From: Eledone cirrhosa
Taxonomy: Eukaryota
DNA: 64,000 nt
NCBI GenBank assembly: GCA_964016885.1
Contig: OZ024741.1
Location: 67,704,001-67,768,000 of the forward strand
Direction of reading: 5' to 3'
Shown here: positions 10,904 to 45,327 of the stretch, piece by piece
Position numbering within the stretch: position 1 is the first letter of the stretch
How the letters are laid out: every line of letters begins with the position of its first letter
Notes under the pieces: model-generated
Database searches by the model: none
The model's input: the letters and a program-made list of their open reading frames with translations, nothing else
Told to the model about the DNA's origin: nothing
Program-made: the position numbers and the translations under genes

Positions 10904-11184
10904 CCTACGTCATCGTTTTCATTGATCGCCTACTTAGTGTGCGTGAAGAAAAAGCAACCATGCTCCCACAACGGTTGCAGTTTCTTCTATGGAGACGCCC
11001 GGATAAGGAGAAAATAACCATGCCAGCGAATCGGCCAGCCTCACCGGCGAGAAAGCCATTGCCGGCACTCGCCTTACCAGGGATGTATCTGGTCTATAAG
11101 TACAATGAATACAAGAGGCAGAGGCAAGAACAACATCGGCGTAAAGTAACCGAAAGGGAGTTGGATCACCTGAATCATAAAATT
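10904..11184 (+). CDS. Exon of a host gene; likely N-terminus of an invertebrate C3HC4-type RING-finger protein (ATG at 10960 or 11020)
   Basis: Strong polypyrimidine tract plus TAG acceptor (10901-10903); two accATG starts; phase-0 GTGAGT donor at 11185. The peptide RKPLPALALPGMYLVYKYNEYKRQRQEQHRRKVTERELDHLNHKI resembles, from memory, the N-terminus of insect/mollusc CG14435-like RING proteins. The RING exon was not seen in the window. Confidence 0.8.
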
Positions 11185-14197: not shown

Positions 14198-14426
14198 CCA
14201 AGATAATAATAAATGGAAACTATATTTATAAAACCATATTTATTTTATTATGTATATTTCAAGGGCGACCAAGCATGTGATTTCCATGGATATGTCATTA
14301 TTTATAAAACAAATTTTGTATTTTATCTGATGAAAGCGCACCAAGTTTTGCTTGGTCGCCCTTGAAATATATATAATAAAATAAATATGGTTTTATAAAT
14401 ACAGTTTCCATTTATTATTATCTTGG
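14198..14426. mobile_element. Inverted pLTR pair of a PLE-derived module
   Basis: 14198-14274 is a near-perfect reverse complement of ~14350-14426; TA-rich microsatellites at ~14070-14108 and from 14427. Confidence 0.8.
14319..14383 (+). ncRNA. Type I hammerhead ribozyme motif
   Basis: Stem I TATTTTAT/ATAAAATA (8 bp), CTGATGA at 14327, stem II AAGCGCACCAAG/CTTGGTCGCCCTT, GAAA at 14364, palindromic TATATA, then UA. Confidence 0.8.
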
Positions 14427-15666: not shown

Positions 15667-15722
15667 ACTGCCTGATGAGGTCATAGCCATTCAATGGCTA
15701 TCATGGAAATATATATAGCAGT
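15667..15722 (+). ncRNA. Type I hammerhead ribozyme motif in a (TA)n-flanked module (15602-15768)
   Basis: ACTGC-CTGATGA-stem II (ATAGCCAT/ATGGCTAT, imperfect base)-GAAA-TATATA-TA-GCAGT, then AATAAA at 15724. Confidence 0.7.
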
Positions 15723-15815: not shown

Positions 15816-15903
15816 AGTAAGTAAGACCCCGACGGCTGAGCTCAAGCCGTTTCGACGGCTAATGCGTTATGGTTCACCTGGTTCCTTACTACTTTTCCTT
15901 TGC
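15814..15903 (+). mobile_element. Family A (TA)n-embedded module, internally deleted copy (a tail-only copy lies at 16288-16375)
   Basis: Shares GACCCCGACGGCTGAGCTCAAGCCGTTTCGACGGCTA and the GCGTTATGGT.CACCTGGTTCCTTAC tail with 28828-29017. Confidence 0.85.
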
Positions 15904-28740: not shown

Positions 28741-29135
<395 letters not shown>

Positions 29136-29319
29136 GATAAATCTACCAAGAGTTTACGGTAGTGTCCAATCCGTATGAAGAACTCAATGTATTCCGGATA
29201 TCATGGAAAGAAGAGATGTATATGTATATACACACACCGAACTGCATTTAACCTTTTGTGTTTTCATTGGTCAATTTTGAACTGAAATTTTGAATTGTTG
29301 TTATTATCAATAAATATAC

Positions 29320-29474
29320 TTCATTATTTCTGAAGACGGCGTATATATGTGTTTGGTATGTATATTTAATCTTGATAATTTGTATAATTTTGTATAATTT
29401 TGTACATAGATCTGTTGAATATGCATACCAATTATAACACATATATATCCTAGAAACGATCGTTAAATAATGAA
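29320..29474 (+). ncRNA. Type I hammerhead ribozyme motif with a ~115-nt extended stem II
   Basis: Perfect 10-bp stem I TTCATTATTT/AAATAATGAA; CTGAAGA at 29330; GAAA at 29453; palindrome CGATCG; UU site. Stem II arms pair (GTATATATGTGTT/AACACATATATAT and TGGTATGTATATTTAA/TTGAATATGCATACCA); its base is imperfect. Confidence 0.8.
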
Positions 29475-29519
29475 CTTTTTTTGTTTAATATAAGGAATTG
29501 TTTATTCATTATTTGTTTA

Positions 29520-29587
<68 letters not shown>

Positions 29588-43956: not shown

Positions 43957-45198
43957 TCACGGAGGTTCGAATCTTATGAATTTAGTGGCAATTCTATGTC
44001 TGCAGAAGATAGATCTTTCTAACTTATTGTTAAGTAGCCTTTTTACATTTTTGAGGATATACATTAGTTCTAGATCACATAGCCAGCAGTGGGACATACC
44101 TGTACTATAGGTTTTAGCAGCCGACAACTTCGACTAGTTAATACTGTAGTTAGTGCTGCTGTCCTTCAGTTCCCATATTTTTTGGCGAGGGTTGTGGAAC
44201 CCATAAGTGCACGGTTTTTCATTGAGTGCCTGTGCACATACCATCTTTTTTTAAAAGAACCCGTGGTGGATCCTATGTAATTTCAGGTGGAGTTATCCGA
44301 GATGACTGTGCACATGTATACTGGGCTCGAATCGAGACATCTGTTCGCCAATGGGCACCTATCTGGTAGGTGACAGTTACAGTTTGAGGCGCTACTTTGT
44401 GCAGCTTCTACACTGCTGTTTAGTACTCTGTTATAAGTGGGTTGTGATATATGCCCATTGGGGTTTTGCTGCTGCGCGTTTGTATGCGCTTGCGGTTGTG
44501 ATGTTGTGATGTGTTTATGCTTATAATTTGGTGCTACGTTATGCATAGGTGCGGTTGATTTACTAGAGATATTTCTGTGGTTGATCCTGCGTATGTGTGA
44601 TTCTATATTTGCTGCTGTCGAGTATGAGAGTTTTATAGTAAATCTATTGAGTATTTTGTGATATCTATGTGAGATAGGGAAGTGTTTATCTATTAGTTTA
44701 AAGAATGTAGAGGGCAGTCTAGTTTTTATAGAGGAGTTGAAGATTGGGTTGAACCATAGGTATTTTCTTTGTCTGTTTCTTCTATTGTTTCTTGGGTTTA
44801 CGTTATTAGTGTTTTGACCGTTTACTCCAGGTGTTACGTGCCTAACCCTATGTCTAGTCCAGCTATTTCTATTATTGTGTGAGCGGTTGGTGTAGTAGTT
44901 ACTAGGATTGTTTACGTTGTCTTTATTCACTATATATTGCAGTTTATCTTTATGACCGGCCCTACGTAATACTGCATTATAATAGTCAGCATGTACGTTA
45001 AAGATTTCTAGGTTAGAGGATAAGCGGGATATTCGGAGGGATATACTACGTGCTATGGATCTAATTATGGATTTGGGGTGGTTTGAGTTGTAACTAATGT
45101 AGGCAAGATTTTCATTATTTTTGTGGAAAGGTTCTATTAAACCCGTATTTAGATTTAGAGTCACATCTAGAAAGTTTACTTTCTTATGGTTCAGTTCA
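43957..45198 (-). pseudogene. PLE RT thumb plus GIY-YIG endonuclease pseudo-ORF
   Basis: VNFLDVTLNL..SNHPKSI..WFNPIFNS..KHFP..NRFTIKLSYS..CNC..CPLANRCL..VYMCTV..*NYIGST..FKKRW..H; after a frameshift, WELK..C.LCD.E..LLNNKLE...CRH. TGA at 44283, frameshift near 44180, one further TAG. Confidence 0.88.
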
Positions 45199-45327
45199 TT
45201 GTATTGGCGATCGAGTAACGTGAAAACAAGCGAATAGCGATCTCTAGACCTACCAGTTCAGAGAAACAATTGTCAGCAATGAGATTAAAAACCTTTTTTG
45301 TATTGCAAACCATGTCAATCTTCTTTC

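What the first reader, a model, noticed from the sequence alone, without database searches (positions are those of the whole stretch)
29320..29474. Hammerhead with an intact core split by a ~115-nt stem II
All core nucleotides, a perfect 10-bp stem I and a CGATCG palindromic stem III are present, but CTGAAGA and GAAA are ~115 nt apart, bridged by two helices whose differences are G-U compatible. Standard HHR descriptors with short stem II would likely miss this. It lies on the same strand as the host exon. The base of stem II is imperfect, so this copy may be inactive.
Basis: partly seen in the sequence, partly recalled or inferred. Interest (0 to 1): 0.75.

Follow-up and report, generated by a model that had tools for sequence, protein, structure and literature searches.

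The report
Long-armed hammerhead in octopus Penelope retrotransposon
This is a complete hammerhead (predicted self-cutting) RNA motif with one arm stretched to 116 bases, carried by thousands of copies of a Penelope-type jumping gene in an octopus-type genome; the long arm is kept by paired mutations, and the element likely copies itself from capped, uncut RNA that starts at the ribozyme.

Summary
The motif is not a one-off. It is the pseudo-LTR hammerhead of a young Hydra-clade Penelope-like retrotransposon (830-aa RT/GIY-YIG ORF).

6,456 genomic copies have a 100-130-nt stem II and none has 8-38 nt. Three subfamilies keep the proximal helix by two-sided changes. They also keep the 'imperfect' base (C·A, then C·C), so that base is a family trait, not decay of this copy. 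Published Hydra-clade motifs have 12-26 nt here, and Rfam misses this one.

Copy ends pile up at A29323 (1,380 against 107 one base upstream), often after an extra G. This suggests a capped start inside stem I and copying from uncut RNA. Cleavage is untested; it is predicted to be slow and to need a dimer or protein. This copy lies in the sense strand of a host intron, with no like partner in the 124 kb scanned.

This scan has already noted long-armed Hydra hammerheads and capped-start ends in other families of this genome. Verdict: new variant of a known kind, moderate interest.

The parts
29130..29220 (-). Inverted piece of the element's 'tail' (ends at the second 3' terminus)
   Evidence: 100% identical over 91 nt to L039:402-492, in reverse
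29219..29528 (+). 5'-truncated pseudo-LTR of a Hydra-clade Penelope-like element, ending at the first 3' terminus, 64 nt after the predicted cut
   Evidence: 97.4% identical over 310 nt to L032; the same repeat flanks 759-830-aa ORFs in L033, L038, L039
29320..29329 (+). Stem I, 5' strand
   Evidence: 10 Watson-Crick pairs with 29465-29474; U-A/U-G/C-G and U-A/C-G changes between subfamilies
29323..29323 (+). Predicted capped transcription start of the element (inferred)
   Evidence: 1,380 copies begin here against 107 one base upstream; G precedes in 32 of the first 100 listed against 13% background; joints to 29323 in runs X1 and X5
29330..29336 (+). Core box CUGANGA (C3-A9)
   Evidence: of 100 copies picked by their 3' half, 2 have a point change in this box and 14 are truncated before or within it
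29337..29452 (+). 116-nt stem II rod: C·A opening, two pairs, C·C, covarying proximal helix, long distal helices, apical 10-nt tandem unit
   Evidence: lengths of 104-126 nt differ by copies of the 10-nt unit
29453..29456 (+). Core box GAAA (G12-A15.1)
29456..29463 (+). 8-nt palindromic stem III, predicted to pair between two hammerheads
   Evidence: self-duplex -10.0 kcal/mol
29464..29464 (+). N17 (U); predicted cut on its 3' side, triplet GUU
   Evidence: N17 is A in subfamilies B and C and in a branch of A
29465..29474 (+). Stem I, 3' strand
29505..29514 (+). Second copy of the stem I 5' decamer; predicted competing partner of the 3' strand
   Evidence: hairpin z only -1.16, weak
29018..29132 (.). 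(TA)n target microsatellite, left flank
29527..29584 (.). (TA)n target microsatellite, right flank
10960..11184 (+). Coding exon (aa 1-75) of the host RING-finger gene, in whose intron the copy lies

Best explanation
The motif is a complete type I hammerhead sequence in the terminal repeat of a young Hydra-clade Penelope-like retrotransposon, left here as a short truncated copy in a host intron; its 116-nt stem II is a fixed, covarying family trait, it is predicted to cut only slowly and as a dimer or with the element's protein, and the element likely copies itself from capped, uncut RNA that begins inside stem I. Shown: the motif, its place in the pseudo-LTR, copy numbers, covariation, the pile-up of 5' ends at 29323 and two fixed 3' termini. 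Inferred: the pile-up is a capped start; reverse transcription starts inside the RNA 64 or 199 nt past the cut site and runs back through an uncut ribozyme; the catalytic fold is a minor state, held back in the capped RNA by a 7-pair A-U stem I, a helix that ties up the core, and a downstream partner of stem I; the rod is a structural handle, likely for the element's protein, rather than part of the chemistry. Untested: any cleavage, expression or binding.
For: Element: direct repeats of 351-355 bp with periods of 6.4-7.1 kb around 759-830-aa ORFs in 3 of 18 fetched regions, and inverted arms in most others. The best 100 ORF matches are 99-100% identical, 98 without a stop. Hydra motifs are present in P0001. 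Family trait: 6,456 copies with 100-130 nt, 0 with 8-38 nt. Covariation: 94% of 500 cells paired against 34-47% when slid; 44 cells with two-sided changes, 0 of 500 shuffles reach it. Core-anchored pairs at positions 2, 5, 6, 7, 10 and 11 change on both sides between subfamilies whose stem II is 45-65% identical. RNAalifold finds the same proximal helix. 5' ends among the first 100 copies: 35 within 4-8 nt of the core (1 a point mutant), 2 at 9-13 nt, 41 run through. 30 of 30 loci are true junctions; the extra G has binomial p 7e-7. Only 3 of 30 loci with a non-T before the cut site begin there. Precedent: the Anolis PLE hammerhead needs protein and is dispensable for insertion in vitro (PMC11167929); PLE hammerheads cut poorly and as dimers (PMC4209133).
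Against: No cleavage, RNA or protein data exist here. The covariation comes from three related subfamilies, so from few events: two of five measures do not beat the shuffles (36 and 253 of 500). In subfamily A the (AU)n helix also pairs when slid by two (0.88 against 0.99). Subfamilies B and C were fetched with patterns that demand an intact core. The 100 listed hits include head-to-head partners and are not independent, and some G's may come from the partner arm. Copies starting at the cut after a T were not counted. Folding energies ignore tertiary contacts. Pfam and PDB sequence searches do not recognise the ORF; the clade call rests on motifs compared by eye. The role of the rod is untested, and that reading was met in earlier scan notes.
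Confidence: 0.7

Rival explanations
1. The hammerhead no longer cuts at all and is kept only as a structural scaffold (promoter, RT-binding or priming element) at the RNA's 5' end.
For: At least a third of the first 100 copies must come from RNA uncut at this site. The catalytic fold lies 6.8-9.8 kcal/mol above the ensemble in the two subfamily A copies tested with flanks. There is no G10.1-C11.1 pair, and the youngest branch has GUU. Ribozyme mutants do not affect insertion in Anolis (PMC11167929).
Against: Core boxes, palindrome and an NUH triplet (GUA or GUU) persist across subfamilies whose arm is 45-65% identical. The motif-only penalty (3.4-3.9 kcal/mol) is within the range of other hammerheads here (2.3-7.9). 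The outer stem I covaries.
Confidence: 0.17
2. The long arm is a decayed DNA fold-back or MITE that landed in a short hammerhead and inactivated it.
For: The arm is AT-rich, also folds on the antisense strand (z -4.43), and fold-backs are common in this family.
Against: No short form exists. The sense strand is 17 kcal/mol more stable, with G-U bias. There are two-sided changes. The arm is in ORF-intact young elements. Other families here also have 37-98-nt arms of different sequence.
Confidence: 0.04
3. This copy has been domesticated as an intronic ribozyme that cuts the host pre-mRNA, like amniote HH9/HH10.
For: It lies on the sense strand of a host intron and has the full 10-pair stem I.
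Against: It is 97% identical to other copies of a family of thousands and sits in (TA)n like its sisters. No hammerhead with the same palindrome lies in the 124 kb scanned. Stem III is too short for a monomer.
Confidence: 0.04
4. The motif processes monomers that circularise (retrozyme-like), and the genomic copies come from circles.
For: Tandem full-length units exist, and 41 of 100 copies run through the start site. This model is proposed in PMC4209133.
Against: A circle has no 5' end, yet copies pile up at one base with an extra G. The short copies fetched are mostly head-to-head or single, not tandem arrays.
Confidence: 0.05

Closest known systems
Hammerheads of Hydra-clade C-terminal EN+ Penelope-like elements (Craig et al. 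2021, PMC8557442, section 11 and File S2), including Hydra-1_Obim
   Same: Type I motif in the pLTR, short palindromic stem III, frequent mismatch opening stem II (15 of 26 rows), frequent U at N17 (10 of 26 rows), (TA)n targets, Hydra protein motifs, inverted 5'-truncated copies and a tail.
   Different: 116 nt between the boxes against 12-26 nt (my count); unit of 6.4-7.1 kb against generally under 3 kb; tail of 135 nt against 30-40 bp.
min-HHRs of metazoan PLEs (Cervera and de la Peña 2014, PMC4209133)
   Same: pLTR location, palindromic positions 15.2-16.2, extra nucleotide after A9, predicted dimer mechanism, many solo and opposite-strand copies.
   Different: Their 'larger than usual' helix II is 7-8 bp and their descriptor stops at 26 nt; the conserved G10.1-C11.1 pair is replaced by C·A followed by an R-Y pair.
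Poseidon PAc of Anolis (Frangieh et al. 2024, PMC11167929)
   Same: Internal RT initiation at two sites giving a tail; uncut RNA as template.
   Different: Different clade; there the ORF starts in stem II, here the ATG lies about 350 nt after the cut site. Protein-assisted cleavage was shown there and is untested here.
'Long helix II' hammerheads of chrysoviruses (PMC13725137, passages)
   Same: Type I motifs in 5' UTRs upstream of an ORF.
   Different: 'Long' there means 6-8 bp; they have a stable helix III and cut as monomers.

Membership tests
Type I hammerhead ribozyme | CUGANGA and GAAA boxes, A15.1-U16.1 pair, NUH triplet | tested here: met
   triplet GUU
Type I hammerhead ribozyme | Three helices, ends open in stem I | tested here: met
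   stem III is 3 pairs with a 2-nt loop as a monomer, 8 pairs as a dimer
Type I hammerhead ribozyme | G10.1-C11.1 pair stacked on the core | tested here: not met
   C·A at that position in 67 of 69 sequences; PLE descriptors allow extra N10 and N11, so this excludes the canonical subtype only
Type I hammerhead ribozyme | Loop I-loop II tertiary contact | tested here: inconclusive
   Loop II lies dozens of pairs from the core; the conserved C·C at position 4 could stand in, untested
Type I hammerhead ribozyme | Match to an Rfam hammerhead model | tested here: not met
   the window's short-armed motifs are not matched at gathering either
Type I hammerhead ribozyme | Site-specific self-cleavage | not testable with these tools
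   needs an assay
Penelope-like element (EN+) | Single RT plus C-terminal GIY-YIG ORF flanked by pLTRs | tested here: met
   domains assigned by eye against the alignment; Pfam and PDB gave nothing
Penelope-like element (EN+) | Tandem or inverted 5'-truncated copies and a tail at one end | tested here: met
Hydra clade | RWK-type motif and DKT | tested here: met
   RWR and DKT in P0001
Hydra clade | CxCX5C linker; CxxC and CxH on either side of conserved E and N | tested here: met
Hydra clade | Insertion into (TA)n | tested here: met
Hydra clade | Placement in the clade by phylogeny | not tested
   published sequences were read, not loaded into a tree
Non-LTR retrozyme | Short non-coding tandem monomers, each with a hammerhead | tested here: not met
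   the tandem unit is 6.4-7.1 kb and coding; definition from 10.64898/2026.07.22.740005

The most novel reading that the evidence does not exclude
Octopus Hydra-clade elements use a long-armed hammerhead as a position-dependent switch. At the capped 5' end of the RNA the ribozyme is locked off (7-pair stem I, core tied into an extension of the rod), which keeps cap and template whole. The read-through 3' copy, with 10 pairs, can cut once two copies pair or the element's protein docks on the rod. Arms of 60-126 nt have grown in several families, a class of over 15,000 motifs in one genome that the descriptor I read and Rfam miss.
Probability: 0.25. Interest if true: 0.72.

Novelty: new variant of a known kind. 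Interest (0 to 1): 0.45.

Why it matters
What PLE hammerheads do is an open question (stated in PMC8557442). This family gives a genomic record of the RNA that was copied: a sharp 5' boundary with an extra G inside stem I, two fixed 3' termini, and few copies starting at the cut. That extends the in vitro Anolis result to another clade and makes the role of cleavage testable with a handful of constructs. It also shows that hammerhead counts in animal genomes are too low. Patterns with 37-130 nt between the boxes give 15,560 matches here, against 34 in the reversed controls, all beyond the 26-nt limit of the published descriptor. The window copy itself is most likely an ordinary insertion.

Tried and rejected
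DNA similarity search of the own genome returned nothing (the tool skips common words), so patterns were used instead. Rfam found no hammerhead. Pfam named none of 13 window ORFs and found no RT in the element ORF; the PDB sequence search gave nothing.

Sequencing runs: no RNA holder listed. The four runs laid are contigs of unrecorded kind and cannot show starts or expression.

A short-armed form of this family: none. A pile-up of 5' ends at the cut site: not seen. An upstream cut at the UUC before 29323 as the source of the 5' boundary: rejected by inspection, since no core follows a matching stem I strand. A splice acceptor there, as in Drosophila virilis: no AG precedes 29323.

The downstream anti-stem-I hairpin is kept only as weak: z -1.16; perfect in 14 of 14 sampled A copies, but 10 pairs in only 6 of 11 B and 7 of 14 C copies, against shuffled means of about 7.

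Link of other long-armed families to PLE ORFs: of 60 loci, 10 had a tblastn hit within 1.5 kb, 5 with the ORF's end upstream on the same strand; 50 had none. Lünse et al. (PMC5785218) is not held.

Full report
Observation. The region folds far better than shuffles (z -6.58). The 116-nt arm is a rod of -41.8 kcal/mol on the sense strand and -24.4 on the antisense strand. Rfam shows no hammerhead. The min-HHR descriptor of Cervera and de la Peña allows at most 26 nt between the boxes, so the claim that standard searches miss it holds.

What it belongs to. The 25-nt 3' half occurs 6,845 times in the 3.0-Gb genome, control 0. The arm is the family state: 6,456 copies have 100-130 nt and none 8-38 nt. 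Of 18 regions fetched, L033, L038 and L039 show the motif in direct repeats 6.4-7.1 kb apart around ORFs of 759-830 aa; most others show inverted arms. The protein has RWR, DKT, CxCX5C, CxxC and CxH where Craig et al. define the Hydra clade, and it follows their Hydra alignment block by block by eye; no tree was built. The best 100 ORF matches are 99-100% identical and 98 have no stop, so the family is young. The window copy is (TA)n, an inverted 91-nt tail piece, a 310-nt truncated pLTR, then (TA)n, the insertion form described for PLEs. It lies between exons of a RING-finger gene whose exon is 99% identical to an Octopus bimaculoides protein.

Is the arm under selection as RNA? I found three subfamilies: A (104-126 nt), B (about 95-101 nt) and C (about 100-103 nt, 214 copies by the pattern). 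Their distal arms are 45-65% identical. Pairs counted inward from the core, without alignment, in 31, 12 and 26 distinct sequences read C·A, then G-U/A-U/G-C, G-C, C·C, A-U/G-U/G-C, U-A/U-G/G-C, A-U/G-C, U-A, A-U/G-U, U-A/G-C, A-U/U-A. On a 25-sequence alignment chosen by me across the three groups, 94% of 500 cells pair, against 34-47% in slid registers. 44 cells change on both sides (0 of 500 shuffles), while the numbers of covarying pairs and of pair types do not beat the shuffles (36 and 253 of 500). These are few evolutionary events, B and C were selected for an intact core, and A's (AU)n helix also pairs two places off. Among 100 copies picked by the 3' half only, 2 have a point change in the 5' core box. 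The imperfect base is thus conserved, and 15 of 26 Hydra rows in File S2 also open with a mismatch (my count).

Long arms are common here. A generic pattern gives 6,672 matches at 37-67 nt and 2,432 at 68-98 nt, controls 19 and 15. The 60 loci fetched fall into several sequence groups, most folding as one rod; 5 of 60 have a Hydra-type ORF end upstream on the same strand. Published Hydra motifs have 12-26 nt. I found no such arm in print in five searches. Lünse et al. was not held, and I did not see the relaxed descriptors of Arkhipova et al. 2017, which could bear on this. Earlier notes of this scan report long-armed Hydra hammerheads in other families of this genome; none matched this sequence.

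What the copy ends record. In the first 100 copies, 35 have their 5' boundary 4-8 nt upstream of the core (one is a point mutant), 2 at 9-13 nt, and 41 run on upstream. Genome-wide, 1,380 copies begin at A29323 and 107 one base earlier; 30 of 30 loci checked are junctions, not point mutants. A G not in the element precedes the start in 32 of the first 100 listed, against 13% in the flanks (p 7e-7, hits not independent). Contigs of runs X1 and X5 show joints to 29323, one with that G. An extra G as the trace of a copied cap, and the likeness of the start to an initiator, are recalled knowledge; the capped-start idea came from scan note e1-10353012 and was tested here on this family. Of 572 copies with a non-T before the cut site, 27 of 30 checked run through it and 3 begin there. 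3' ends fall at two places: 45 of 100 at 64 nt and 39 at 199 nt after the cut, matching the two internal RT start sites of the Anolis element.

Mechanism. Shown: motif, element, covariation, end positions. Inferred: the RNA starts capped at 29323, so the ribozyme is its first 152 nt with 7 A-U pairs in stem I. In that form a helix between the 5' strand plus CUG and the GAAA side is predicted to dominate (pair probabilities mostly 0.67-0.99 in 4 of 5 RNAs, 0.18-0.44 in the fifth), and a downstream decamer competes for stem I (weak). The catalytic fold lies 7.7-13.7 kcal/mol above the ensemble in four of the five capped forms and 6.1-6.3 in the fifth. In read-through forms it lies 2.7-3.6 above for B and C but still 6.8-9.9 for A, which weakens the switch reading for the youngest family. 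The motif alone (3.4-3.9) is no worse than other hammerheads here. Pairing of two palindromes (-10.0 kcal/mol) or the element's protein would be needed to cut. The reverse transcriptase starts inside the RNA and copies back through the uncut ribozyme. The rod is most likely a handle for that protein, which is untested and echoes earlier scan notes. For this copy, no hammerhead with the same palindrome lies in the 124 kb scanned, so it probably does little to the host transcript.

Papers seen: PMC4209133 (parts 1-2 of 4, passages of supplement file 2; file 1 not searched), PMC11167929 (parts 1-2 of 4), PMC8557442 (passages, section 11, supplement parts 1-2 of 59 and passages), 10.64898/2026.07.22.740005 (part 1 of 5), and passages of PMC13725137, PMC6155905 and PMC6765202.

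Verdict. A real motif and a new variant of a known kind: the Hydra-clade PLE hammerhead with a stem II four to ten times the published length. Interest 0.45, as cleavage is untested and the association with PLEs is known; the switch reading would deserve about 0.7 at probability 0.25.

Noticed in passing
window 14319-14383 and 15667-15722 (+): Two further type I hammerhead motifs with 30- and 27-nt stem II and a TATATA palindrome, on the sense strand of the same intron.
   Followed up: partly
window 14327; L015, L025, L098: Short-armed sister motifs (30-43 nt) also show a C·C mismatch at position 4 of stem II by eye, which hints at an old conserved contact site.
   Followed up: partly
window 28827-28935: Near-perfect 109-nt palindrome of a different repeat, next to (TA)n; one arm recurs at about 15820-15862.
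   Followed up: no
window 43963-45257 (-): Broken C-terminal half of another Hydra-type ORF (tblastn E 6e-42).
   Followed up: partly
window 62394: Second GAAA plus the same 8-nt palindrome, with no CUGANGA box found upstream.
   Followed up: partly
L039:356-490: The tail between the two 3' termini is 135 nt, against the 30-40 bp described for PLEs.
   Followed up: partly
L009, L055, L017: Arm lengths of 104-105, 114-116 and 126 nt differ by copies of a 10-nt tandem unit in the apex, a simple route for arm growth.
   Followed up: partly
L019/L020: The head-to-head junction holds a 13-nt unit three times, each starting with the extra G, as if the RT slipped back after reaching the RNA end.
   Followed up: no
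L219-L248: A branch of subfamily A has GUA rather than GUU at the cut site (26 of 30 loci have A there and run through), so GUU looks derived.
   Followed up: partly
L039:645-3083: The local Pfam library gives no significant hit on this intact RT/endonuclease ORF, though many homologues carry PF26215 in precomputed annotation.
   Followed up: no
L044, L048: Other Hydra-type elements are inserted between copies of this family; L048's has a 36-nt stem II hammerhead.
   Followed up: partly
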